This document shows positions 15,730-45,914 of a stretch of 64,000 nucleotides of DNA, piece after piece. The notes beneath the pieces are model-generated. The model did no database searches. It saw nothing but the letters and a program-made list of their open reading frames with translations, and was not told the DNA's origin. A program made the translations under genes and the position numbers. Position 1 is the stretch's first letter. Each line of letters starts with the position of its first letter. The stretch is from Candidatus Rokuibacteriota bacterium (GTDB lineage: Bacteria; Methylomirabilota; Methylomirabilia; Rokubacteriales; DASRDR01), in NCBI GenBank assembly GCA_044866005.1, contig JBIOTN010000067.1, positions 4,899-68,898 on the forward strand, in the 5' to 3' direction.

Positions 15730-16197
15730 ATGGCCGAGCTGATCCACGTCTCCCGGGTCAGGATCGTGAAGGACAAGGGGCCGGTGCGGCGCGCCTACAT
15801 CGAGCAGTTCCCGGACCCGGTGCGCTACGGCGTCCACGGCGGCATCAAAGACTTCTACGGGGTGGACCCGGTGGAGGAGCTGCCCACCACCCTCGACCAC
15901 GTGATCGCGGCGGTCGCAGGGTGAATGACCGGGACGCTAGCCGGGGCGCTAGCGGCGCGGAAGATCCCGACCCAGCCCGATCGCCTCTCCTCCGAGGTCG
16001 AGGGATTCATCGAGAACGTGGACGGCAAGCCCTTGATCACCCGGATCAAGGTCCACTACAAGCTCCGGGTCCCTCCGGGCAAGCGCGCAGAAGCGCTGCG
16101 GGCGATCGAGGTGCATGAGCAGGGCTGCCCGGCGTCCCAATCAGTCAGGCGCGGCATCGCGATCGAGTGGGACGGCGACGTGCACGAGGAGGCTTGA
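15730..16197 (+). CDS. OsmC/Ohr-family peroxiredoxin with in-frame TGA (15922-15924) at the peroxidatic Cys position; candidate selenoprotein
   Basis: The two ORFs 15730-15924 and 15925-16197 are in frame. The motif HVIAAVAG-[TGA]-MTGTLAGALAAR matches OsmC AAHAAC-FSMALS, and the second Cys GCPASQS is conserved. A hairpin lies 10 nt after the TGA. GAGGAGGAG RBS. Confidence 0.65.
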
Positions 16198-25992: not shown

Positions 25993-26066
25993 CCCGCCTC
26001 CGCTTCGACTTGATCCAGCTTCTCGCCGAGCTCGCCGGCTAGCGGGTCAAAAGACTTGACCTTCCC
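25993..26066. repeat. Direct repeat copy 2 (about 73 bp), continuous with the CueR-box promoter
   Basis: About 92% identical to 25203-25275. Confidence 0.8.
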
Positions 26067-26085
26067 CTTCCTGGAAGCCGCACCG
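26055..26085 (+). promoter_or_regulatory. MerR/CueR-type promoter: TTGACC, 19-bp spacer containing CCTTCC-N7-GGAAGC
   Basis: Near-identical to the E. coli copA CueR operator (TTGACCTTCCCCTTGCTGGAAGG). Confidence 0.5.
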
Positions 26086-26167
26086 TGGCATCAATACGTC
26101 GGAGGAGAGGGTGGAGTACCGGGAAGAACACGAGACAGTGGAAACCGGGGGGGCGGAGGGATCGGCT

Positions 26168-26520
26168 ATGGCAGTGGCCAGCCGAGAGCTCATCGAGCGC
26201 TGTGTCGAAGAGTGTCTGAATTGCCTCAAGCTCGCGTCACGTTGCGTGGACTCGTGCCTGGCGGACGACCAGGCCAAGGCGATGGCGCGCTGCATCGGCT
26301 CTGCCTGGACTGCGCGGACCTCTGCCAGGCCTGTATCGCCACGCTCGGCCGGAACTCGGAACACGCGCGCGAGCTCTGCCGGGTGTTGGCGGACGTCTGC
26401 GAGGCGTGCGCGACGGAGTGCGAGAAGTTCGGCGACGGCATCATGCGCCAGTGCGCGGAAGCGTGCCGGCAGTGCGCCGAGGCCTGCCGCCAGGTGGCAC
26501 GGGTGCGGGCCGCCGCCTGA
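26168..26520 (+). pseudogene. Four-helix-bundle copper-binding protein (DUF326/Csp-like, Cys-rich) with a -1 frameshift near 26296
   Basis: The N-terminal half is in the 26111 frame and the C-terminal half in the 26056 frame. Restoring one C in tgcatc(c)ggctc gives ARCIRLCLDCADLC. Confidence 0.6.
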
Positions 26521-26617
26521 GGCCGGCTCCGCGGGGCGGGGCGGTGCGGCGTGCCGTGCCGTCCCGCCGCGCGTTCAGCGCCGGCCGCGCGAAAGCCGAC
26601 CGGCGCAAGGCCGGGGC

Positions 26618-26684: not shown

Positions 26685-27122
26685 GTGAGCACGCCCCTGA
26701 AGATCGGCGAGCTGGCCGCCAAGAGCGGGGTCGCGGCGAAGACCATCCGCTTCTATGAAGGGGCGGGCGTGCTTCCGGCCCCCAGCCGGGGGGCGAACGG
26801 CTACCGCCTCTACGGCGCCGACGCCCTGGATCTCCTGCGCTTCGTTCGGCAGGCGCGAGGCCTCGGTCTCACCCTCGGGGAGATCAAGGAGCTGGTCGCG
26901 ATCCGCCGGCGCGGGGAGATCCCCTGCCGGCACGTCTATCGGCTGATCGAGGAGAAGGCCGCGGAGTTCGAGCGCAAGCTGAAGGACCTCGCCGAGCTTC
27001 GGGCGGTCCTTCGCCGGAGCCTCCGGTCGGCGCCGCGGCCGTTCCCCCGCGCCGCCGTCTGTCCCCATATCGAGGCTGGGAGCCAGGGGGCTTTCGCCGT
27101 CTCCCGCCCCCGGAAGGCGTAG
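26685..27122 (+). CDS. MerR-family metal-responsive regulator (CueR-like)
   Basis: HTH KIGELAAKSGVAAKTIRFYE; its stop abuts the start of the ATPase gene. Confidence 0.8.
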   Translation: MSTPLKIGELAAKSGVAAKTIRFYEGAGVLPAPSRGANGYRLYGADALDLLRFVRQARGLGLTLGEIKELVAIRRRGEIPCRHVYRLIEEKAAEFERKLKDLAELRAVLRRSLRSAPRPFPRAAVCPHIEAGSQGAFAVSRPRKA

Positions 27123-29537
27123 ATGGCCCTGGCCAAGCTCCAGCTCAAGATTGGCGGGATGGCGTGCTCCTTCTGTGTCGAGACCATCAAGAAAGGCCTC
27201 GGCCGGATCGATGGGGTGGCCGAGGTCGACGTCAGCCTCGCCCACGAGGAGGCGCTGATCGCCTACGACCCCGCCCGGGTGCCGCCGACGCTCGTCCGCG
27301 ATACGCTCCGCAGCCTCGGCTACACGGTTCGGGACCCCACCAAGGTCCGCACGTTCGAGGACGAAGAGGCCGAGCTGGCCCGTGAGCGGGACCGCCTCAT
27401 CCTGGCGGGGGCGGCTGCATGGTCGGCGTTCATGGCCATGCTGCTCATGTGGGTGGGCCGGCACCACCCCGCGGTCCACTGGTTCATGGCCGCGCTCGGC
27501 GCGGGGATGGTCTTCGGGCCCGGCCTCTACATCCTGAAGATGGCGTGGGCCTCCGCTCGCCGGCGGATCCTCAACCAGCACGTCCTTATGGAGGTCTCGG
27601 CGTTCGGCGGCCTCGCCGGCGGGATCATGGGGCTCGTGAAGCCGGTGTTCCCGAGCTACGAGTTCTTCGGCGTCGCCGTCTTCGTCACGGCCTACCACAT
27701 TCTCGGTGGTTACACCTCGCTGCTCGTTCGGACACGCGCCTCCCAGGCGGTGAAGAAGCTGCTCTCGCTCCAACCGCTGACCGCGCGGGTCGTGCGCGAC
27801 GGCGCGGAGGTCGATGTCCCCATGGCCGAGGTCCGGAAGGGCGACCTCGTGCGGGTGCGGCCGGGCGAGCAGGTGCCAGTCGACGGGACCGTTGTGGAAG
27901 GCGCCTCGGCCGTGAACGAGAGCCTGGTCACTGGCGAGCCCCTGCCGCGCGAGAAGCTACCCGGCCAGGAGGTGATCGGCGGCTCGCTCAACACGTCGGG
28001 GACGCTGCTCGTCCGCGTCACCCGGGTCGGCGAGGAGAGCTTCCTCGAGCAGGTGGCGCGCCACATTCAGGAGGCGCGCGCGCTGAAGCCGGGCATCCTG
28101 CTGCTGCTGGACCGGATCCTGAGGTATTTCGTCCCCGGCGTGCTCGCCGTCGGCCTGGCGGCGTTCGGCTTCTGGTCGCTCGGCGCCTGGACGCTCTGGG
28201 GCGCGCCCGACTGGGACCGTGCCGCGTTCGCGGCGCTGGCGGTGTTCGTGATGGGCTATCCCTGCGCGCTCGGGATGGCCATGCCCCTGGCGATGATCCG
28301 CGGGGGCGGCGAAGCCGCCCGCCAGGGGATCCTCATGCGGAGCGCGGCGTCGTTCCAGGCCTTCAAGGACGTCTCGGTCGTCGTGCTCGACAAGACGGGA
28401 ACCATCACGCATGGCCAGCCTCGCGTCGTGGACATCGTCCCGGCCGGCGGTTGGGAGCCGGACGGCGTACTCCGGCTGGCCGCGGCCGCCGAGCAGCCCT
28501 CCGAGCACCCGCTCGGCCAGGCGGTGGTGAAGGCCGCGGAGGCGCGCGGTCTCCAGGTTCCTCAGGCGGCGGACTTCCAGGCGGTGGCCGGCCACGGTGT
28601 CCGGGCCACGACCGACGGCAAGCGGCTCCTCCTCGGGACGCTCCGCTTTCTCGCCGAAGCCGGCGTCCGGACGGACGGACTTGCTGCCGCCGCCGAGGCC
28701 CAGGAGGCCGGAGCCCGGACCGTGATCGCCCTGGCCGCCGACGGCCACCTCGCCGGCCTCATCGCCCTGGCAGATACCGTCAAGCCGGACGCGGCCGAGG
28801 CAGTCGCCCGCTTCCGCGCGGCCGCGATCGAGCCGGTGATGATCACCGGCGACAACCCGCGGACCGCCCGAGCGGTGGCCGAGCAGGTCGGGATCCGGCA
28901 AGTGCTCGCCCAGGTGCTGCCGCAGGACAAGGCGGCCCGGGTTCGGGAGCTCCAGCGCCAGGGCAAGCGGGTGGCCATGGTCGGGGACGGCATCAACGAC
29001 GCTCCGGCGCTCATGCAGGCCGACGTCGGGCTCGCGATCGGCGCCGGCACTGACATCGCCATCGAGTCGGCCGACGTGGTGCTGGTCGGCGAGCGGCTGA
29101 CCGCGGCGGTCGATGCCTACCACGTCGCGCGCCGGACGTACCGGAAGACGGTCCAGAACCTGACCCTCGCCTTCTCCTTCAACGGGGTCGGCGTCCCGCT
29201 GGCGACTACCGGGCTGTTGGCCCCGGTCTGGGCGATGGCCGCCATGGCGGCGAGCGTGACGGTGGTCCTGCTCAACTCCTTCCTCGGCCGCCTCGTGCCG
29301 CAGTGGCGGAGGCGGCAGCCGGAGGTGCAGCAGTTCGCCTTGACGGTCCCGAGCATCCACTGCGACGGCTGCGTGACGATGATTCGCGAGGAGCTGGTCA
29401 AGCTGCCGATGGTCGTGTCCGTGGACGGCGACCCGGTGTCGAAGCAGGTCGTCGTCACGACGCGCGACGGTCAGGGGCAGCTCGCCGCGGTCGAGGAGGC
29501 GATCGCGCGCCTCGGCCACGTGGTGGGGGAACGCTGA
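27123..29537 (+). CDS. P1B-type heavy-metal ATPase with N-terminal HMA (GMACSFC), atypical YPC TM motif and a C-terminal HMA-like domain (HCDGC)
   Basis: [13 protein letters not shown]; 804 aa. Confidence 0.9.
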   Translation: MALAKLQLKIGGMACSFCVETIKKGLGRIDGVAEVDVSLAHEEALIAYDPARVPPTLVRDTLRSLGYTVRDPTKVRTFEDEEAELARERDRLILAGAAAWSAFMAMLLMWVGRHHPAVHWFMAALGAGMVFGPGLYILKMAWASARRRILNQHVLMEVSAFGGLAGGIMGLVKPVFPSYEFFGVAVFVTAYHILGGYTSLLVRTRASQAVKKLLSLQPLTARVVRDGAEVDVPMAEVRKGDLVRVRPGEQVPVDGTVVEGASAVNESLVTGEPLPREKLPGQEVIGGSLNTSGTLLVRVTRVGEESFLEQVARHIQEARALKPGILLLLDRILRYFVPGVLAVGLAAFGFWSLGAWTLWGAPDWDRAAFAALAVFVMGYPCALGMAMPLAMIRGGGEAARQGILMRSAASFQAFKDVSVVVLDKTGTITHGQPRVVDIVPAGGWEPDGVLRLAAAAEQPSEHPLGQAVVKAAEARGLQVPQAADFQAVAGHGVRATTDGKRLLLGTLRFLAEAGVRTDGLAAAAEAQEAGARTVIALAADGHLAGLIALADTVKPDAAEAVARFRAAAIEPVMITGDNPRTARAVAEQVGIRQVLAQVLPQDKAARVRELQRQGKRVAMVGDGINDAPALMQADVGLAIGAGTDIAIESADVVLVGERLTAAVDAYHVARRTYRKTVQNLTLAFSFNGVGVPLATTGLLAPVWAMAAMAASVTVVLLNSFLGRLVPQWRRRQPEVQQFALTVPSIHCDGCVTMIREELVKLPMVVSVDGDPVSKQVVVTTRDGQGQLAAVEEAIARLGHVVGER

Positions 29538-34219: not shown

Positions 34220-35083
34220 GTGAGGGACTCTCGAGGCGCGGCTCGGGAGGGACGCGTCGTCGAGGACGCGGCCGCGACGAAACCGGGCGGCACCCTCTCG
34301 CCCCTTCGCGGTCTGTGGGTGCCGAGCCTCGCCCTTCTCGGGGTCGCGCTCGTCGGCTGGACGGCCTGGACCTACGGCGCCTTGAGGGGCCTCGAGTCCG
34401 CTGGCTTCGATGCGCCGTGGGCGCTCGCGGGCCTCGGATTCCTCGCCGGGGTCGGCGCCTTCTTCGCCCCGTGCGCGTTCGCGCTGTTCCCAGCCTATGT
34501 CTCGTACTACCTGAGCCTATCCGGCGAAGGCCGCACCGTCGGCCGGTCGCTCGGCCTGGGGCTCGCCTGCGCCGCGGGCAGTGCGCTGTTCTTCGGGCTG
34601 GTGGGGGGCGTGATTGCGCTGGCCGGCGGGGCGATCTCCACCTACTTGATCGCCGCGAAGCCCTTCGTGGCCCTCGGGGTTGTCGTGCTCGGTGCCGTGC
34701 AGCTTGCTGACGTCCGGATGCCGTCCCTGGCCCTGCCTTTTCCCCTGGACACCGGAGGCGCTCGCTCGGCGGGGGTCGCCGTGTTCCTCTACGGCTTCGG
34801 GTACGCGCTCGCGTCCACCGGCTGCACCTTGCCGATCTACGTCTCGATCACCGTCCTGCCGCTCACGACCGGCTTCTCCGGGTCGGCTCTCTTGACCTTT
34901 ACGGCCTTCGCCGTCGCGATGGCGAGCTTGATGCTCGTCACCACCGTCTTGGTGGGGCTCGCCAAGCGGAGGATCCTGGCCGCGCTTCAAGGGTCCACGG
35001 TCTGGATCAAGCGCGCTAGCGGCATCGTGCTCATCGCCGCGGGCCTCTACCTCGGCTACTACTACGTGAGAGCCGGAATGTGA
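34220..35083 (+). CDS. CcdA/DsbD-like transmembrane thiol-disulfide transporter (two conserved Cys). The start is uncertain.
   Basis: Polytopic; Cys in FFAPCAF and ASTGCTLP helices. Confidence 0.65.
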   Translation: MRDSRGAAREGRVVEDAAATKPGGTLSPLRGLWVPSLALLGVALVGWTAWTYGALRGLESAGFDAPWALAGLGFLAGVGAFFAPCAFALFPAYVSYYLSLSGEGRTVGRSLGLGLACAAGSALFFGLVGGVIALAGGAISTYLIAAKPFVALGVVVLGAVQLADVRMPSLALPFPLDTGGARSAGVAVFLYGFGYALASTGCTLPIYVSITVLPLTTGFSGSALLTFTAFAVAMASLMLVTTVLVGLAKRRILAALQGSTVWIKRASGIVLIAAGLYLGYYYVRAGM

Positions 35084-35105
35084 GCCGCCTCACAGGGAGA
35101 CGACG

Positions 35106-35410
35106 CATGCGACGTGTCGCCGGACTCATGGCGGTGCTGCTTCTGATGGCGTGGCTCACCGTGCCTGTCACCGCCTTCGCGGCGACCAAGGTCGCCGTGA
35201 TCGAGGTCAAGGGGATGGTCTGTCAGGCCTGACCCTTCTCGGTCAAGACAGCCTTGGAGAGGCTGCCGGGGGTGAGCCGAGCTGACGTGAGCCTCGAGAA
35301 GGCGGAGGCTCGGGTCGAGTTCGACGACGCGAAGATCTCGGCCGACAAGCTGGCCGCGGCCGTCGACCGGCTGGGCTTCCGCGCTCGGGTGCTCGCCGTC
35401 GAGCCAGGGG
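35106..35410 (+). CDS. MerP/CopZ-like periplasmic HMA-domain protein with GMVCQA-[TGA]-P (CxxU). The signal peptide is in a different frame (+1 indel near 35160). Candidate selenoprotein or pseudogene.
   Basis: ATG 35106 with AGGGAGA RBS encodes MRRVAGLMAVLLLMAWLT. The HMA domain is in the next frame from 35161. TGA at 35230-35232; hairpin 16 nt downstream. Confidence 0.5.
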
Positions 35411-35416
35411 GGTAGC

Positions 35417-35683
35417 GTGCCGGTCGAGATCGAGCTCTTGACCGCGCCCGGCTGAGGGAAATGCGAGGCCGCCAAGGCGTTGGCGCTCGACGTGATCGAC
35501 TCGGTCCGAGCGGAGTGCCATGATGTGTGGCTCACGGTCGTCGACGTCACGGAGCAGCCTGCCGTGGCGGTGAAGTACCGCGTGACGGCGACGCCCGCCA
35601 TCGCGATCGACGGAGTCCTCGCCTTCCGCGGCGTCCCCCCAGCCCACGTCCTCCGCGACCGAATCTTGCAGGCGAAGGCGTGA
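35417..35683 (+). CDS. Small thioredoxin-fold protein with G-[TGA]-GKC (UxxC); candidate selenoprotein
   Basis: GTG start after AGGGGGG; the C-terminal TATPAIAIDG..FRGVPP motif matches small Trx/Grx-like proteins. TGA at 35453-35455; hairpin 14 nt downstream. Confidence 0.55.
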
Positions 35684-35737: not shown

Positions 35738-35768
35738 TTGACTCTCCTCCCAGGAGGAGGGTTTAGCC
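35738..35768 (+). promoter_or_regulatory. MerR-type promoter: TTGACT, 19-bp spacer with dyad CTCCTCC-CA-GGAGGAG
   Basis: 20 nt upstream of the merR-family ATG. Confidence 0.45.
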
Positions 35769-35787: not shown

Positions 35788-36249
35788 ATGAGCGAGTTGA
35801 AGATCGGGGCGCTGGCCCGGCTCGCGGGCTGCACGGTCAAGGCCATTCGATTCTACGAGGCGAACGGCCTCCTTTTCGCCGCTGCGCGCAGCCCGGCCCG
35901 GTACCGGCTCTATACCGAGCGCGACCTCAGACAACTCCAATTCATCCAGCGTGCGAAGCTGATCGGGCTCCCGCTCACCAAGATCAAGAGTCTGGTCGTT
36001 CACGTGAGCGAGGAGCAGTGCGGGTGTCCCACGATCCGGCCTCAGCTGGAGCAGCTGATCCGCGAGCAGCTCAAGGAAGTGGGGGACAAGCTCGACCAGC
36101 TGGCGCTCCTCAAGCACGAGCTGGAGGGCTTGCTGGCAAAGATGCGTGGCGCCGTGCGACCACTTCCCCAAGAGCTCTGCGTGTGCGGCGCACAGCATCA
36201 CTCGGGGTTTGTCGGACTCGTGAAGCTCAAGCAAGGAGGACGGCGATGA
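35788..36249 (+). CDS. MerR-family heavy-metal-responsive regulator (Cys-rich effector domain)
   Basis: HTH IGALARLAGCTVKAIRFYE; C-terminal CGC and CVC. Confidence 0.8.
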   Translation: MSELKIGALARLAGCTVKAIRFYEANGLLFAAARSPARYRLYTERDLRQLQFIQRAKLIGLPLTKIKSLVVHVSEEQCGCPTIRPQLEQLIREQLKEVGDKLDQLALLKHELEGLLAKMRGAVRPLPQELCVCGAQHHSGFVGLVKLKQGGRR

Positions 36250-36581
36250 ACAAGAGTCGGAAGTCACCGGGCCTGCCGGTCCTGCCCGCCCCGCGCACCG
36301 ACTGCGGGGACGGCAGCTGCGGCTGTGGCTGCGGGATTCCGCTGGCCACGCCCAAGCCCACAAAGACCGGCAAGCAACGTACACGCCCGACCGGGGAAGG
36401 AGGAGCGAACATGGAGCCGGTGAGAATGTCGCTGTGCCATGAAGGTGCGGAGTGTCCGGAGGTGGTCGTCGAGCGAGACGAGGTTCGCATCGGCGAAGCC
36501 GGCAACCTGGCCGTGCTCAAGAAGGACGAGTGGAACATCCTCGTCGAGCTGATCCGATCGGGACAGCTGACGCAGCTGTAG
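36246..36581 (+). CDS. Cys-rich hypothetical protein (CGDGSCGCGCG N-terminus)
   Basis: ATGA overlap with the merR stop; 111 aa. Confidence 0.5.
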   Translation: MNKSRKSPGLPVLPAPRTDCGDGSCGCGCGIPLATPKPTKTGKQRTRPTGEGGANMEPVRMSLCHEGAECPEVVVERDEVRIGEAGNLAVLKKDEWNILVELIRSGQLTQL

Positions 36582-36603: not shown

Positions 36604-36747
36604 ATGGCACTGAAGAAGGGAGAGCGCTACCGCTGCCCGGATCCGAAGTGCGGCTGCGAGATCGAGGTCACCAAGGGCGCCGCGCCGGGCCAGGGCGGCG
36701 ATCTGAACCCGCGTTGCTGCTGCGGCAAGGAGATGCAGCGCGTGTGA
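36604..36747 (+). CDS. Small (47 aa) Cys-rich metallothionein-like peptide
   Basis: CPDPKCGCEIE...NPRCCCGKEM; the ATG follows the previous gene. Confidence 0.35.
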   Translation: MALKKGERYRCPDPKCGCEIEVTKGAAPGQGGDLNPRCCCGKEMQRV

Positions 36748-36807: not shown

Positions 36808-38250
36808 TCAGCGTCGTACGCGCCTCGTAGGCAGCAGGGCCCGACTCAGGTGGCGATTCCAGCTCCCGTAGCGCTCTCGGATCGCGCCCCGGGGGAGCGC
36901 CAGGAGGATCACGGCGGCGCCGATGATCATGTCGTTCGACGTCGCACCGACATTCGAGCCGGCGAGCACCCAGGGCGCGACGACGAGCCAGGCCCCGACA
37001 ACGACGTTGACGAGGCGCAAGGGGCGGGCCACTTCCGCCGTCACGATGATGGCCAAAGTCAGGATCAACGCCCCTCCGATGTGGTCGCTGTCCGCAGCCG
37101 GGCCCTCGGCCTGGACCACGGCGGGCGCCGCCATCAGCCAGACGCCAAGCGCCGCGCTGACCAGGAGAGTCCAGGGAGCGCCGATCCCCCACAGCATGGC
37201 CGGGACGATCCGGGAGATCGGTGACCCGTAGCGCGGGGTTCGGAGATCCTTGCCCTCGCGCTCGGTCGTGCCGCCCACCCAGAACGTCCACCAGAAGGGC
37301 TTCCCCTCCCGGACACTCTGGGCGAGGAACTGTCCCATCGCGACGACCTCGTCGAGCGTCAGGGGAATCATCAACAACATGAGGAAGGCCGCCGCCAGAC
37401 AGAGGGTGCACCACTGACCGACGATGACGGGCTGGAGAATGACCAGCACGATGTGGGTGATGCCGAGCGGGACGACGAGGATCCCGAAGAACGTCACCAT
37501 CCATGGCATCGTGCGCCACCGAGTCTGGCCGCCCATGTAGCCCATGAGGGCTTCGAACGTATAGGCCGCCGCGCCCAGCCCCGCGTCCGAGATCGGCCAG
37601 GCACGCGAGACCTCCGAGTGGAGGACGCGCATGGTGCCTTCACCGAAGAACGGTTCCCAGGCGACGTCGACATAGCCGAGCTGGACGGCGGCCAGATAGC
37701 GGGAGATGAACCAGCCGGCGAAGGCGAGCGCGATGATGGGCGTCCGCTGGAGCCAGGAAGACGGATTGTACGTCCATCCGGGCGGGATCTCCGGGCCGGG
37801 CTTCATCATGACCAGATGATGGGCCGCGCCCGGCATCATGGGCACGAGCACCGAGAAGGTGATTGCCAGCGCCCCGACCAGGGTATCGTTGACGTAGGCG
37901 ACCGGGCGTGGCGCCCAGAAGAGGAGCGGCGCAAACTGCAGCCACACGCCGACGAGACACACCGCCCAGCGCCCCGCGAAATCCAGGCGCGGCAAGAGCG
38001 ACAGCGCGCCGAAGCACGCGAGCAGCGCCCCGCTGATCGTGTCGCTCCACGCGGTCGCCGCGCTTTCGTAGCCGAACGTGGCGGGACTACCGATCAGCCA
38101 TACGCCCAGCACCGCGTTCGTCACGTTGGTCCAGAGCCATTTCGCGCGCTGCTGCCGGATCATCTCCAGATGGTCTCGAGCGTGTTCCTGCACCCCGTCC
38201 CGCGGGAGTGGCGCGGCAGGGGCGGCGTGCTCGGGACCTCGCCGGCTCAT
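36808..38250 (-). CDS. Vitamin K epoxide reductase (VKOR)-family membrane protein
   Basis: Polytopic; GQWCTLCLAAAF CxxC in a TM helix. Confidence 0.65.
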   Translation of the reverse strand: MSRRGPEHAAPAAPLPRDGVQEHARDHLEMIRQQRAKWLWTNVTNAVLGVWLIGSPATFGYESAATAWSDTISGALLACFGALSLLPRLDFAGRWAVCLVGVWLQFAPLLFWAPRPVAYVNDTLVGALAITFSVLVPMMPGAAHHLVMMKPGPEIPPGWTYNPSSWLQRTPIIALAFAGWFISRYLAAVQLGYVDVAWEPFFGEGTMRVLHSEVSRAWPISDAGLGAAAYTFEALMGYMGGQTRWRTMPWMVTFFGILVVPLGITHIVLVILQPVIVGQWCTLCLAAAFLMLLMIPLTLDEVVAMGQFLAQSVREGKPFWWTFWVGGTTEREGKDLRTPRYGSPISRIVPAMLWGIGAPWTLLVSAALGVWLMAAPAVVQAEGPAADSDHIGGALILTLAIIVTAEVARPLRLVNVVVGAWLVVAPWVLAGSNVGATSNDMIIGAAVILLALPRGAIRERYGSWNRHLSRALLPTRRVRR

Positions 38251-42836: not shown

Positions 42837-43739
42837 GTGCGAAGACGCATACTGAGCTGGTTTCGGGTCGTAGGAGCGGGGGCGGCGCTGCTCGGGGCGA
42901 CAGGGCTTGCGTCCGCCGCCTCGCAGCATCCTGGCACGGCGAGCTCGACGTTCGAGCATGTCCACGCCCTGGCGATGGACGCCGAGGGCCGGACGCTCTG
43001 GCTCGGGACTCACGCCGGGCTCTTCCGGACCGAAGGCGGGGGACGGTCGTGGGAGCCGGTGGCGCTGCCTGTGCCGGCGGGCCACGCCGACATCATGACG
43101 GTGACCACCGACCCGGGCGATTCCCGGGTGCTCTACGCCGCCACGCACGATGCCGGGGTCTTCAAGAGCGTGGACGGCGGGGCGACGTGGAAAGCCGTGA
43201 ACGCCGGCCTCGGCGGGCTGGACGTCCACGGGCTCGCCGTCGACCCGAACACGCCGTCGAAGCTCCACGCCGCCGTGCGGGACAAGGGCGAGGGGATCTA
43301 TCGGAGCACCGATGGCGGCGGCAAGTGGACGCGCGTGGACGATGGACCCGGCGGCGAGGTCAAGGTCCTGGCCTCGGTCAACATGCCGACGGGGATGGGC
43401 GGCATCTGGCTGTACGCGGGCACGGCCGAGGGGCTTCAGCGGAACCCCGACTGTTTCTGAGGGTGGAAGCTCATGGCGGGCGGTCTGCCCGCCGGAAAGA
43501 CGGTGAACGGCTTCGCGGTGGATCCCACCAATCCGCGCCTGATGTACGTCGCGATGCGGGACGGCCTCTTCCGCAGCACGGATGGCGGCGAGAGCTGGAA
43601 GCCGGTAGGTAAGGGGCTCCGGGACATGGCGGTCGTGGTCGTGAACCCGAAGCGGCCGGCCGAGGTCTACGCGGCGACGACCGATGGGATGATCTACCGG
43701 AGCGCCGACGGAGGAACCACGTGGGAACGCCGGAAGTGA
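42837..43739 (+). CDS. Secreted BNR/Ycf48-like beta-propeller protein interrupted by an in-frame TGA (43458-43460)
   Basis: ORFs 42837-43460 and 43473-43739 are in the same frame. SxDGGxxW repeats lie on both sides of the TGA, and a 7-bp hairpin with a GGUCU loop sits 15 nt after it. Confidence 0.5.
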
Positions 43740-45265: not shown

Positions 45266-45338
45266 CGATGTCGGACGGACGGCGAGGAGGCGAGGGCGGG
45301 AAGTCGCCGCATGGGCCGCTCGGGAGGAGGCCGACACC

Positions 45339-45914
45339 GTGAACCTGTCACGCTGGGGTTGGGGTTCCCGCGCCTCCCGGCTCGGATTGTTGGTGCTGGT
45401 GGGCCTGGCGGCGCCGGCGCTCGCGGCCTCGGGGCCCGGCGACGCGCCCAGGGACCCCTTCGACACCATGGGCGTGCACCGTCCGGCGGAGCCGGCGCCG
45501 GCTCCGGATCTGGCCTTCCGGTCGCTGGACGGTCGCGAGGCGCGCCTGCGCGACCTCCGGGGCAAGGTGGTCCTCCTCGGTTTGTTCCGGACCGACTGAC
45601 CCAACTGCCGGCGGGAGGCTCCCGCCAAGGCGGCGCTGTATCGGGCGTTCCGGGCAAAGGGACTGGAAGTCGTGGGACTCGACCTGGGGGAATCGGCGGA
45701 GATGGTCCGAGCCTTCGCGAGAGAGTTCCAGGTGACGTTCCCCATGTGGCTCGACCCCGCGGGCCAGAGTCCGGCGGCCCTCGGCGTCTACGGGCATCCC
45801 AACACGATCGTCATCGACCGCGAGGGCCGCATCGTCGGCCGCGTCCGGGGCGAGCGTGACTGGGGCACCGACGACGCCCGACGTCTGGTCGAGGTCCTGT
45901 TGAGCCGCCGATGA
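45339..45914 (+). CDS. TlpA/redoxin-family periplasmic oxidoreductase with D-[TGA]-PNC (UxxC); candidate selenoprotein
   Basis: ORFs 45339-45599 and 45672-45914 are in the same frame. GKVVLLGLFRTD-U-PNCRREAP aligns with [21 protein letters not shown] of the Cys paralogue at 40272. Hairpin 10 nt after the TGA. Confidence 0.6.

What the first reader, a model, noticed from the sequence alone, without database searches (positions are those of the whole stretch)
35106..35410. MerP/CopZ-like HMA protein with CxxU metal-binding motif, plus an apparent +1 frameshift between signal peptide and domain
The HMA fold is clear: KVAVIEVKGMVCQA-[TGA]-PFSVKTALERLPGV...RVEFDD. The canonical GMxCxxC has its second Cys replaced by TGA, which would give a Cys-Sec metal site.

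A 5-bp stem with loop UUGGAGA (35249-35265) lies 16 nt downstream of the TGA.

The signal peptide MRRVAGLMAVLLLMAWLT, which has a strong RBS, is in frame 0. The mature domain (VPVTAFA|ATK...) is in frame +1. One extra G in caccgGtgcc near 35160 separates them. This is either an assembly error or a recently inactivated gene.

The gene sits between a CcdA-like membrane protein and the Trx-like UxxC gene.
Basis: partly seen in the sequence, partly recalled or inferred. Interest (0 to 1): 0.72.

Follow-up and report, generated by a model that had tools for sequence, protein, structure and literature searches.

The report
Selenocysteine metal-binding protein, no frameshift
This is an intact gene for a small exported metal-binding protein whose second metal-holding cysteine is very probably selenocysteine; it is a variant of a selenoprotein type already catalogued, and the reported frameshift does not exist.

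Summary
Window 35107-35415 (+) is one uninterrupted reading frame. It encodes a signal peptide and an HMA (MerP/CopZ-type) domain, with TGA (35230-35232) in place of the second Cys of GMxCxxC. The reported "+1 frameshift / extra G" is a misreading. The same 577 bases occur unchanged in one NCBI assembly and four independent Logan assemblies.

The TGA is very probably selenocysteine:
- Seven other distinct Methylomirabilota/Rokubacteria loci keep C-x-x-TGA.
- Sister loci have TGA-x-x-C, and one has TGA-x-x-TGA.
- Codons after the TGA are under purifying selection (dN/dS 0.15-0.30 for most pairs, up to 0.58).
- A 7-bp hairpin with a GGA loop, 16 nt downstream, fits the bacterial SECIS model. It is invariant at synonymous sites and is built from rare codons.

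The gene is the last or middle member of a conserved module: a cytoplasmic Trx-like selenoprotein (U-G-K-C), a CcdA-like membrane thiol transporter, and this periplasmic HMA protein. The module lies inside a metal-resistance island.

HMA selenoproteins are already catalogued (NF041115 UxxU, MerP, P-type ATPase UxxC). This one is a sister clade below the curated cut-offs, with a CxxU motif and a CcdA-like partner instead of MerT. It is a real gene of modest novelty. The selenocysteine machinery and the bound metal could not be tested.

The parts
35094..35098 (+). Shine-Dalgarno-like GGGAG, 8 nt before the ATG
   Evidence: Read directly from the sequence.
35107..35415 (+). Complete gene for a 102-residue HMA-domain selenoprotein precursor, in a single frame with TGA read as residue 42
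   Evidence: Translation. Pfam HMA 48.8 bits. NCBIfam best hit NF041115, 85.6 bits. Solved MerP 1AFI, E = 1e-14 over 69 residues.
35107..35181 (+). Predicted signal peptide MRRVAGLMAVLLLMAWLTVPVTAFA, with cleavage after AFA
   Evidence: Judged by eye (basic n-region, hydrophobic core, AxA site); no predictor was run. All relatives have an equivalent N-terminal segment.
35221..35223 (+). TGT, Cys39, the first metal ligand of G-M-V-C-Q-A-U
   Evidence: Sister loci have TGA at this position.
35230..35232 (+). In-frame TGA, probable selenocysteine 42, the second metal ligand
   Evidence: Conserved as TGA in 7 other distinct loci. Aligns with Cys in UxxC sister loci and in CxxC homologues. Downstream dN/dS is 0.15-0.30 for most pairs.
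35249..35265 (+). Putative bacterial SECIS hairpin CAGCCUU-GGA-GAGGCUG (-8.4 kcal/mol), with 23 nt from UGA to the apical loop
   Evidence: Codons GCC-TTG-GAR-AGG-CTG are invariant in 13/13 relatives. TTG is 3.4% of Leu codons and AGG is 3.8% of Arg codons in this window. One compensatory U-A to C-G change occurs in L042.
34220..35083 (+). CcdA-like membrane thiol:disulfide transporter, the conserved upstream partner, with Cys in ...FFAPCAF... and ...STGCTLP...
   Evidence: Pfam DsbD_TM 28.2 bits against a cut-off of 27.1. 340 homologues, named CcdA / cytochrome c biogenesis protein, from Rokubacteria/NC10/Methylomirabilota. Lies immediately upstream of the HMA gene in every Rokubacteria-type locus with enough flank.
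35417..35683 (+). Thioredoxin_3-type small protein with in-frame TGA at 35453-35455 (P-G-U-G-K-C) and no signal peptide
   Evidence: The same PG-TGA-xKC gene lies in L001, L015, L016, L017, L035, L036, L037 and L038, next to the CcdA-like/HMA pair.
35470..35485 (+). Putative SECIS hairpin of the Trx-like gene, CGCCAA-GGCG-UUGGCG, 14 nt after its TGA
   Evidence: Kept in L035 with loop GGUC and in L037 with loop GGCG.
35788..36249 (+). MerR-family metal-sensing regulator downstream, with Cys at CGCP and CVCG
   Evidence: Pfam MerR_1, MerR and MerR-DNA-bind. NCBIfam ZntR, CueR, CadR and MerR all score below their cut-offs.

Best explanation
Window 35107-35415 is an intact, expressed-type gene for a small exported metal-binding protein of the HMA fold (MerP/CopZ type).

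Decoding. The metal-binding loop reads G-M-V-Cys39-Q-A-UGA42. The UGA is most likely decoded as selenocysteine. The hairpin CAGCCUU-GGA-GAGGCUG, 16 nt downstream inside the coding sequence, would act as a bacterial SECIS that recruits SelB with Sec-tRNA(Sec).

Metal site. After export and signal-peptide cleavage, the protein would hold a soft, thiophilic metal ion between one thiolate and one selenolate. Candidates are Hg(II), Cu(I), Ag(I) or Cd(II); which one was not determined.

Module. The gene belongs to a three-gene module conserved in Methylomirabilota/Rokubacteria:
- a cytoplasmic thioredoxin-like selenoprotein (P-G-U-G-K-C);
- a CcdA-like membrane protein with two transmembrane cysteines;
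- this periplasmic HMA selenoprotein.

The most likely role of the module is an electron relay across the membrane (Trx-like to CcdA-like to HMA) that keeps the Cys-Sec pair reduced and able to bind metal in the oxidising periplasm. This is inferred at about 0.45. Here the module is embedded in a probable long operon: MerR-type regulator, P1B-ATPase, DUF7482, a MacB-type ABC system, then the module.

Status of each step. Shown: the frame, the domain, conservation of the TGA and of the downstream frame, hairpin conservation and gene order. Inferred: Sec rather than another residue, export, the metal, and the direction of the relay.
For: 1. Single frame and HMA domain across the TGA. The closest solved single-domain relative is MerP 1AFI, E = 1e-14.
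2. Sequence identical in 5 independent assemblies.
3. TGA is a normal stop in this genome: 19 of 25 sampled genes end in TGA, including the CcdA-like gene 24 nt upstream. There is therefore no genome-wide reassignment.
4. All 43 database homologues are C-terminal fragments that start just after the TGA position, because gene callers split the gene. In the DNA, 8 distinct loci read GMVC-x-x-TGA-P (window, L035, L036, L037, L038, L040, L041, L043), 6 read GMV-TGA-SSC, and 1 reads GMT-TGA-GS-TGA.
5. Cys occupies these positions in CxxC homologues L006, L007, L021 and L022.
6. For the 56 codons after the TGA, dN/dS is 0.15-0.30 for nine of eleven pairs, at dS up to about 0.9-1.2. It is 0.48 and 0.58 for the two most divergent relatives, L043 and L042.
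7. The hairpin fits the published bSECIS constraints: 3-9 nt loop, G in the first two loop positions, 16-37 nt from UGA to the loop, energy at or below -7.5 kcal/mol (PMC13188914). Here the loop is GGA, the distance is 23 nt and the energy is -8.4 kcal/mol.
8. The hairpin codons are invariant in 13/13 loci, while neighbouring conserved residues use 2-4 synonymous codons. The hairpin uses the rare codons TTG and AGG.
9. L042 carries a compensatory U-A to C-G pair.
10. Four other in-frame TGAs in the window have GG-containing apical loops at similar spacing: the OsmC-like, Trx-like, BNR-repeat and TlpA-like genes.
11. Methylomirabilota are reported as selenoprotein-rich, with one MAG predicted to carry 63 selenoprotein genes (PMC13188914).
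12. Module conservation: the CcdA-like gene is directly upstream in all Rokubacteria-type loci with flank, and the PG-TGA-xKC Trx-like gene is present in 9 loci.
13. There are no terminator-like sites and only 1-25 nt gaps between the CcdA-like, HMA and Trx-like genes.
Against: - No selA, selB, selC or selD gene and no tRNA-Sec is present in the 64-kb window or in the fetched loci. No Rfam SECIS family is matched. Sec decoding therefore rests on comparative evidence only.
- Covariation in the hairpin is thin. There is one double change in 13 sequences, and the shuffle control is not significant (38/500). Part of the hairpin's conservation could come from the conserved peptide A-L-E-R-L-P.
- The MFE fold of the 71-nt region is no more stable than shuffles (z = -0.22).
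- The known periplasmic clients of CcdA are thioredoxin-fold proteins, not HMA domains. The electron-relay role is therefore an extrapolation.
- In L040/L041 the Trx-like gene is replaced by a flavoprotein disulfide reductase. In L042 the partner is MerT-like, next to MerB.
- The metal is unknown. NCBIfam scores for MerP (71.8) and CopZ (about 61) are both below their cut-offs.
Confidence: 0.8

Rival explanations
1. Same gene and same hairpin, but the UGA is decoded as cysteine. A SelB-dependent tRNA(ReC)/SelC*-type tRNA would insert Cys, giving an ordinary CxxC MerP-like protein, or a mixture of Cys and Sec forms.
For: tRNA(ReC) decodes UGA as Cys in the presence of a downstream SECIS, and it is enriched in genomes with UxxU motifs (Vargas-Rodriguez 2018, as cited in PMC13582414). 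This protein family does contain a UxxU member, L042.
Against: No such tRNA is in the window. In the cited survey tRNA(ReC) was reported for Armatimonadota, Desulfobacterota and JAPLJL01, not for Methylomirabilota. Keeping TGA plus a SECIS in five genes of one window merely to insert Cys would be costly.
Confidence: 0.07
2. One reading: the gene is broken. It would be a frameshifted or nonsense pseudogene, or an assembly error.
For: None remains after checking. It rested on a misread base near 35160.
Against: The frame is single. The sequence is identical in 5 independent assemblies. The TGA is conserved in 8 distinct loci at 60-89% protein identity, with downstream dN/dS of 0.15-0.30 for most pairs.
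Confidence: 0.02
3. The UGA is a genuine stop. The locus would make a 41-residue peptide, and separately or not at all a 53-57-residue C-terminal fragment, as public gene calls suggest.
For: Gene callers annotate exactly this. Examples are a 41-aa plus a 57-aa ORF in L035, and the NCBI 58-aa 'heavy metal-associated domain-containing protein' P0005.
Against: The HMA profile needs both halves (residues 31-91). The fragment lacks the metal-binding loop, a signal peptide and any Shine-Dalgarno sequence. The called start codons differ from locus to locus (V, M or L at different residues). In sister loci the stop sits three codons earlier, and in either case it falls on a metal-ligand position.
Confidence: 0.03
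4. Functional rival for the module: a metal relay rather than an electron relay. The periplasmic HMA selenoprotein would capture the metal and pass it to the cysteine pair of the CcdA-like protein, standing in for MerT. That protein would hand it to the cytoplasmic Trx-like selenoprotein or to a flavoprotein reductase, as in MerP to MerT to MerA.
For: - The gene order CcdA-like then HMA mirrors merT-merP.
- Betaproteobacterial relatives are true MerP proteins (TIGR02052, 111 bits against a cut-off of 92.55) carrying TGA-x-x-C in canonical merR-merT-merP-merA operons.
- L042 (UxxU; NF041115, 112 bits) sits beside a MerT-like gene and MerB.
- L040/L041 have a pyridine-nucleotide disulfide oxidoreductase right after the HMA gene.
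Against: - The window has no merA, merT or merB.
- The L040 flavoprotein scores equally as MerA and as glutathione reductase, both far below cut-off, and it lacks the C-terminal Cys pair.
- The surrounding island looks export- and copper-oriented: P1B-ATPase, MacB-type ABC system, multicopper oxidase, SCO1, DUF411.
Confidence: 0.3

Closest known systems
NCBIfam NF041115 'UxxU_metal_bind', metal-binding (seleno)protein. [quoted passage not shown]
   Same: It is the best-scoring curated family for the window protein (85.6 bits, E = 2e-24). It is also a stand-alone HMA domain with Sec in the metal loop. The relative L042 is a true member (112.4 bits, above the cut-off of 95; GMT-U-GS-U) and shares the same hairpin position.
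   Different: The window protein and all CxxU or UxxC Rokubacteria relatives score 72-86 bits, below the cut-off of 95. They have one Sec rather than two. Their conserved partner is a CcdA-like protein rather than a MerT-like one.
MerP, the periplasmic mercury-binding protein (TIGR02052; PDB 1AFI, 1OSD). 'Mercuric transport protein MerP' is already listed as a selenoprotein family in the GOS survey (PMC2398784, Table 2).
   Same: Signal peptide plus a single HMA domain with a GMxCxxC-type loop. 1AFI aligns over residues 1-69 at E = 1e-14. Betaproteobacterial relatives found here are bona fide MerP proteins with TGA-x-x-C and their own covarying hairpin.
   Different: The window protein scores 71.8 bits against a cut-off of 92.55. 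There is no merT or merA nearby. Sec is at the second ligand position, not the first.
Cation-transporting P-type ATPase (E1-E2) selenoproteins with UxxC in the N-terminal HMA domain (catalogue in PMC9312934 and PMC13188914)
   Same: An HMA metal-binding loop with Sec as a metal ligand.
   Different: In those proteins the domain is fused to the pump and is cytoplasmic. The ATPase in this window (27123-29537) has ordinary Cys, in GMACSFC.
UxxU / CxxU / UxxC switching over one conserved SECIS in Group 4 [NiFeSe] hydrogenases (PMC13582414)
   Same: The same evolutionary pattern: the Sec position moves within a C/U-x-x-C/U metal site while the downstream SECIS core stays the same. A single SECIS may serve two UGAs 9 nt apart. 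Here the UGA-to-stem distance is 16 nt in CxxU loci and 25 nt in UxxC loci, and both UGAs are present in L042.
   Different: A different protein family and metal site.
CcdA/DsbD-type transmembrane electron relays (cytoplasmic thioredoxin to CcdA to periplasmic Trx-fold reductant such as ResA/CcmG)
   Same: A CcdA-like protein with the two conserved transmembrane Cys, encoded next to a cytoplasmic Trx-like protein and an exported protein with a C/U-x-x-C/U pair.
   Different: The exported partner has an HMA fold, not a Trx fold. Both soluble partners carry Sec. The Pfam match for the CcdA-like protein is marginal and partial (28.2 against 27.1 bits, covering profile positions 5-89 of 219).

Membership tests
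Pfam PF00403 HMA (heavy-metal-associated domain) | Profile match above the gathering score over the whole domain | tested here: met
   48.8 bits against 24.8; residues 31-91 cover profile positions 1-61 of 62, with the TGA scored as Cys.
Pfam PF00403 HMA (heavy-metal-associated domain) | GMxCxxC-type metal-binding loop between beta1 and alpha1 | tested here: met
   G-M-V-C-Q-A-[TGA]. The second ligand position is the TGA. It counts as met only if the UGA is decoded as Sec or Cys.
Pfam PF00403 HMA (heavy-metal-associated domain) | beta-alpha-beta-beta-alpha-beta ferredoxin-like fold | not tested
Only sequence matches to solved HMA domains are available.
NCBIfam NF041115 UxxU metal-binding (seleno)protein | Score at or above the curated cut-off (95 bits) | tested here: not met
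   85.6 bits. Close relatives score 72.7-85.1. L042 scores 112.4.
NCBIfam NF041115 UxxU metal-binding (seleno)protein | Two Sec residues in a U-x-x-U motif | tested here: not met
   The window has C-x-x-U.
MerP (TIGR02052) | Score at or above the curated cut-off (92.55 bits) | tested here: not met
   71.8 bits. Betaproteobacterial TGA-x-x-C relatives score 111.6-111.7.
MerP (TIGR02052) | Encoded in a mer operon with merT and merA | tested here: not met
   No MerT, MerA or MerB match among the window genes scanned.
MerP (TIGR02052) | N-terminal signal peptide (periplasmic location) | tested here: inconclusive
   The signal-peptide-like segment MRRVAGLMAVLLLMAWLTVPVTAFA|A was judged by eye only; no predictor was available.
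Bacterial selenoprotein gene | In-frame UGA that aligns with Cys in homologues | tested here: met
   The position is Cys in UxxC sister loci and in CxxC homologues L006, L007, L021 and L022.
Bacterial selenoprotein gene | Protein-level conservation continuing in frame after the UGA | tested here: met
   dN/dS is 0.15-0.30 over 56 codons against 9 of 11 relatives, and 0.48 and 0.58 against the two most divergent ones. The HMA profile spans the UGA.
Bacterial selenoprotein gene | [quoted passage not shown] | tested here: met
   7-bp stem, GGA loop, 23 nt from UGA to the loop, -8.4 kcal/mol (model from PMC13188914). Synonymous sites are invariant and rare codons are used. Covariation support is weak, and 8.4% of TGAs pass this filter by chance.
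Bacterial selenoprotein gene | selA, selB, selC and selD present in the genome | not testable with these tools
   None is in the 64-kb window or the fetched loci. The rest of assembly GCA_044867585.1 could not be read. Only phylum-level literature support exists.
Bacterial selenoprotein gene | Selenium shown in the protein | not testable with these tools
   Needs 75Se labelling or mass spectrometry.
CcdA/DsbD_TM (neighbour gene 34220-35083) | Profile match, plus one conserved Cys in each of two transmembrane segments | tested here: met
   PF02683 scores 28.2 against 27.1 bits (marginal and partial). The segments ...FFAPCAFALFP... and ...ASTGCTLPIY... are conserved in L038 and L043. Homologues are named CcdA.

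The most novel reading that the evidence does not exclude
The trio 'cytoplasmic Sec-thioredoxin-like protein, CcdA-like membrane protein, periplasmic Cys-Sec HMA protein' could be a dedicated, previously undescribed selenoprotein operon of Methylomirabilota. In it a CcdA-type transporter would serve a metallochaperone rather than a thioredoxin-fold client. It would act either by reducing the client's selenylsulfide or by passing the metal itself inward, replacing MerT. One SECIS hairpin would tolerate the Sec codon at either ligand position, or at both.
Probability: 0.3. Interest if true: 0.55.

Novelty: new variant of a known kind. Interest (0 to 1): 0.36.

Why it matters
- Annotation. Public gene calls split this gene, and its many Rokubacteria relatives, into a 41-residue and a roughly 57-residue fragment. 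An example is the NCBI 58-aa 'heavy metal-associated domain-containing protein'. The metal-binding protein is therefore invisible in annotation, and so are at least four other likely selenoprotein genes in this window.
- Biology. The locus adds a periplasmic Cys-Sec metal site with a conserved CcdA-like/Sec-thioredoxin partner set to the short list of selenoproteins implicated in heavy-metal handling.
- Evolution. It gives a clean natural series (CxxU, UxxC, UxxU, CxxC) over one hairpin. That series could be used to test what selenium contributes to metal affinity, exchange rate and resistance to oxidation in an HMA site.
- Limits. The finding does not overturn anything. HMA selenoproteins, Sec-position switching and selenoprotein-rich Methylomirabilota have all been reported.

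Tried and rejected
- Frameshift or extra G near 35160: rejected by direct translation and by identical independent assemblies.
- Rfam scan of the whole window at gathering thresholds: no SECIS or other family.
- tRNA scan of the window and of 20 related loci: no tRNA-Sec.
- MFE folding of 71 nt after each of the two TGAs: no more stable than shuffles (z = -0.22 and -0.05). Global folding energy is uninformative in 71% G+C sequence.
- Hairpin covariation in the Rokubacteria clade: one compensatory pair, not significant against shuffles. The betaproteobacterial MerP hairpin does better (covariation score exceeded by 1 of 500 shuffles), but it is a different hairpin.
- Searching for sel genes among about 40 window ORFs with Pfam: none found.
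- Assigning the metal from the regulators: the MerR-family protein at 35788-36249 scores similarly for ZntR, CueR, CadR and MerR, all below cut-off.
- Calling the L040/L041 flavoprotein a MerA: rejected. It ties with glutathione reductase, both far below cut-off, and it has no C-terminal Cys pair.
- Two contig look-ups (P0003, P0040) returned no DNA.
Full report
**1. What is in the sequence**

Window 35107-35415 on the + strand is one open frame interrupted only by TGA at 35230-35232. It reads MRRVAGLMAVLLLMAWLTVPVTAFAATKVAVIEVKGMVCQA[TGA]PFSVKTALERLPGVSRADVSLEKAEARVEFDDAKISADKLAAAVDRLGFRARVLAVEPGG, followed by TAG. The mechanical ORF list already shows the signal peptide and the start of the domain in the same ORF, 35080..35232.

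The sequence is ctcaccgtgcctgtc, so the claimed +1 frameshift is a misreading. A GGGAG lies 8 nt before the ATG.

With the TGA scored as Cys, Pfam HMA matches residues 31-91 (profile positions 1-61 of 62; 48.8 bits against a cut-off of 24.8). The best single-domain solved relative is MerP 1AFI (E = 1e-14 over 69 residues).

- a CcdA-like membrane protein (34220-35083, DsbD_TM);
- one base after the HMA stop, a Thioredoxin_3-type gene (35417-35683) with its own in-frame TGA, in P-G-TGA-G-K-C.

**2. Not an assembly artefact, not a pseudogene**

The CcdA-like protein is 100% identical to a database protein found on NCBI GCA_044867585.1 and on several Logan assemblies of separate sequencing runs. 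Window 35107-35683, which includes both TGA codons, is reproduced exactly in the NCBI contig and in four Logan contigs. A fifth contig matches over the part it contains.

TGA is the ordinary stop codon here. Nineteen of 25 sampled genes end in TGA, including the gene immediately upstream. Genome-wide reassignment is therefore excluded.

**3. Comparative evidence for recoding**

A protein search with the read-through sequence returned 43 clusters. All are C-terminal fragments that begin just after the TGA position and were called with assorted start codons. Relatives are therefore interrupted at the same place.

Reading the DNA of related loci gives three forms:
- C-x-x-TGA. Eight distinct sequences have G-M-V-C-x-x-TGA-P: the window, L035, L036, L037, L038/L039 (an NCBI Methylomirabilota MAG), L040, L041 and the two-domain L043.
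- TGA-x-x-C. Six closely related Rokubacteria loci have G-M-V-TGA-S-S-C.
- TGA-x-x-TGA. L042 has G-M-T-TGA-G-S-TGA.

More distant homologues have plain CxxC (L006, L007, L021, L022). The stop codon thus always falls on one or both metal-ligand positions and alternates with Cys. This is the classical signature of selenocysteine.

The 56 codons after the TGA evolve under purifying selection. Against nine of eleven relatives dN/dS is 0.15-0.30, with dS up to about 0.9-1.2. Against the two most divergent relatives, L043 and L042, it is 0.48 and 0.58.

**4. The hairpin**

It satisfies the published bacterial SECIS constraints (PMC13188914, read):
- a 3-nt apical loop beginning GG;
- a 7-bp stem;
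- 23 nt from UGA to the loop;
- energy of -8.4 kcal/mol.

On its own this is weak. By the same simplified filter, 8.4% of all TGA trinucleotides in this 71% G+C window pass, and the regional MFE is no better than shuffles.

The stronger evidence is evolutionary. The codons forming the stem (GCC TTG GAR AGG CTG) are invariant in 13 of 13 sequences, whereas neighbouring equally conserved residues use 2-4 synonymous codons. The stem also depends on TTG and AGG, which make up 3.4% of Leu codons and 3.8% of Arg codons in this window.

L042 carries a compensatory U-A to C-G exchange, TTG/AGG to CTG/GGG, which changes Arg to Gly. The formal covariation test is not significant with so little variation.

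The same hairpin sits 16 nt from the UGA in CxxU loci and 25 nt from it in UxxC loci. Both distances are within the model's range. In L042 it follows both UGAs.

Four further in-frame TGAs in the window are each followed by a G+C-rich hairpin with GG in the apical loop at comparable spacing. They lie in the OsmC-like gene (15922), the Trx-like gene (35453), the BNR-repeat gene (43458) and the TlpA-like gene (45597).

**5. Gene context**

From about 26.7 kb to 35.7 kb all genes are on the + strand, mostly with short gaps:
- MerR-family regulator (26739-27119);
- P1B-type ATPase with an ordinary Cys HMA domain (27123-29537);
- DUF7482;
- two FtsX/MacB-type permeases, an ABC ATPase and an unassigned protein;
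- the CcdA-like gene, the HMA gene and the Trx-like gene.

No terminator-like site separates the last three.

Further downstream are a second MerR-family regulator, small Cys-rich ORFs, a VKOR-SPW protein, TlpA-like redoxins, a DsbD_2 protein, a multicopper oxidase, SCO1, DUF411 and a YtkA-like protein. This is a metal-resistance and periplasmic thiol-redox island.

Across relatives, the CcdA-like gene lies directly upstream of the HMA gene in every Rokubacteria-type locus that has flanking sequence. A P-G-TGA-x-K-C Trx-like gene is adjacent or about 1 kb away in L001, L015, L016, L017, L035, L036, L037 and L038, as well as in the window.

Variants exist. L040/L041 have a flavoprotein disulfide reductase after the HMA gene. 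It is not MerA: it ties with glutathione reductase, both far below cut-off, and has no C-terminal Cys pair. L042 sits next to a MerT-like gene and MerB.

**6. How it most likely works**

- Shown: an intact gene; an HMA domain; a UGA at the second ligand position; a conserved downstream frame and hairpin; a conserved three-gene neighbourhood.
- Inferred with high confidence (about 0.8-0.85): SECIS-dependent insertion of selenocysteine, giving a Cys39/Sec42 metal site.
- Inferred by eye: export through the signal peptide.
- Inferred with moderate confidence (about 0.45): the Trx-like selenoprotein has no signal peptide and so is cytoplasmic. It would feed electrons through the two-cysteine CcdA-like protein to keep the periplasmic Cys-Sec pair reduced and able to bind metal.
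- The main functional rival (about 0.3) is a MerP-MerT-like inward metal relay in which the CcdA-like protein replaces MerT.
- The metal is not determined.

**7. Comparison with what is known**

HMA selenoproteins are not new. The catalogue in PMC13188914 and PMC9312934 lists the following:
- 'Cation-transporting ATPase E1-E2, UxxC';
- MerT with C/SxxU.

NCBIfam additionally holds a MerT/CopZ fusion selenoprotein model, NF045683. The GOS survey lists 'Mercuric transport protein MerP' among selenoprotein families (PMC2398784).

The window protein's best curated hit is NF041115, at 85.6 bits against a cut-off of 95. MerP scores 71.8 against 92.55. L042 passes NF041115 at 112.4 bits. The betaproteobacterial TGA-x-x-C proteins pass MerP at about 111.6 bits, lie in canonical merR-merT-merP-merA operons, and have a different, covarying hairpin.

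Switching among UxxU, CxxU and UxxC over one conserved SECIS has just been described for Group 4 [NiFeSe] hydrogenases. The same paper gives the caveat that tRNA(ReC) can insert Cys at such UGAs (PMC13582414). A Methylomirabilota MAG with 63 predicted selenoprotein genes has also been reported.

The window gene is therefore a sister clade of a known selenoprotein kind. It differs in Sec placement (CxxU), in falling below both curated cut-offs, and in its conserved CcdA-like and Sec-Trx partners.

**8. Verdict**

The gene is real and intact, and it is almost certainly a selenoprotein gene that public annotation splits into fragments. Novelty is moderate, a new variant of a known kind. The conserved two-selenoprotein-plus-CcdA module is the part most worth following up. 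The selenocysteine machinery, selenium incorporation, metal specificity and relay direction remain untested.

Noticed in passing
window 42837-43739 (+), TGA at 43458-43460: A BNR/Ycf48-like repeat protein (nearest NCBIfam F510_1955 family, below cut-off) has an in-frame TGA in NPDCF-[TGA]-GWKL. A hairpin GGCGGGC-GGUCU-GCCCGCC follows, and the same repeat type continues downstream. Most of the best 120 of 1612 homologues are about 200-210 aa and cover only the part of the query before the TGA; the two read (P0166, P0172) end exactly at ...NPDCF. Rare full-length homologues have L, R or G there, not Cys. This is a candidate CxU selenoprotein family; my term searches of the 2026 catalogue table, which did not target this family, showed no such entry.
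   Followed up: partly
window 35417-35683 (+), TGA at 35453-35455: A Thioredoxin_3 / MJ0307-like small protein with P-G-U-G-K-C and a hairpin CGCCAA-GGCG-UUGGCG at 35470-35485. It is conserved with its TGA in eight related loci next to the CcdA-like/HMA pair.
   Followed up: yes
window 45311-45914 (+), TGA at 45597-45599: A TlpA/ResA-like redoxin (AhpC-TSA, Redoxin) with the active site F-R-T-D-[TGA]-P-N-C (UxxC) and a hairpin GGCGGGA-GGC-UCCCGCC 10 nt downstream. It is probably a member of the known thiol-disulfide isomerase-like selenoproteins.
   Followed up: partly
window 15730-16197 (+), TGA at 15922-15924: An OsmC-like protein with in-frame TGA (AAVAG-[TGA]-MTGT). The Pfam OsmC match spans the TGA only when it is read through, and a hairpin lies 10 nt downstream. 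OsmC-like is a known selenoprotein family.
   Followed up: partly
L002-L005, L008-L010, L020, L023-L029 (Betaproteobacteria/Burkholderiales MAGs and metagenome contigs): MerP in these loci is encoded with TGA at the first ligand position (G-M-T-TGA-x-x-C). A distinct hairpin GAUCUC-CGUGAA-GAGAUC follows and shows compensatory changes. In the three loci whose flanks were read (L002, L004, L010) the gene sits in a canonical merR-merT-merP-merA operon.
   Followed up: partly
L042 2211-2531: A UxxU member of NF041115 (112 bits) with two TGAs 9 nt apart ahead of a single hairpin. It lies next to a MerT-like gene and MerB. It carries the only compensatory change seen in the Rokubacteria-type hairpin.
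   Followed up: partly
window 35741-35762: An inverted repeat ACTCTCCTCC-ca-GGAGGAGGGT overlaps a TTGACT hexamer just upstream of the MerR-family gene at 35788. It looks like a MerR-type operator within a promoter spacer. The strict sigma-70 scan found nothing.
   Followed up: partly
window 36246-36581 and 36604-36747 (+): Two small Cys-rich ORFs directly after the MerR-family gene (…CGDGSCGCGCG… and …CPDPKCGCE…CCCGKE…), with no Pfam or NCBIfam match. They may be metal-binding peptides.
   Followed up: no
window 36808-38250 (-): A fusion of SPW repeats with a VKOR (vitamin K epoxide reductase) domain. This is a disulfide-forming membrane enzyme sitting next to the reducing CcdA-type module.
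   Followed up: no
window 26056-26520 (+) and 26530-26573: A Cys-rich ORF with a DUF326 repeat (21.4 bits, just above cut-off) ends at TGA 26518. A very strong hairpin follows, reported as a 21-nt inverted repeat at 26530-26573 and as a 15-bp stem of -31 kcal/mol in the TGA scan. Whether it is a terminator was not examined.
   Followed up: no
public annotation of relatives (e.g. P0005, NCBI Methylomirabilota MAG GCA_035288345.1; JGI 'copper chaperone CopZ' 56-57 aa entries): The HMA selenoprotein gene is systematically called as two ORFs, about 41 aa and about 57 aa. The databases therefore hold only a ligand-less C-terminal fragment.
   Followed up: yes
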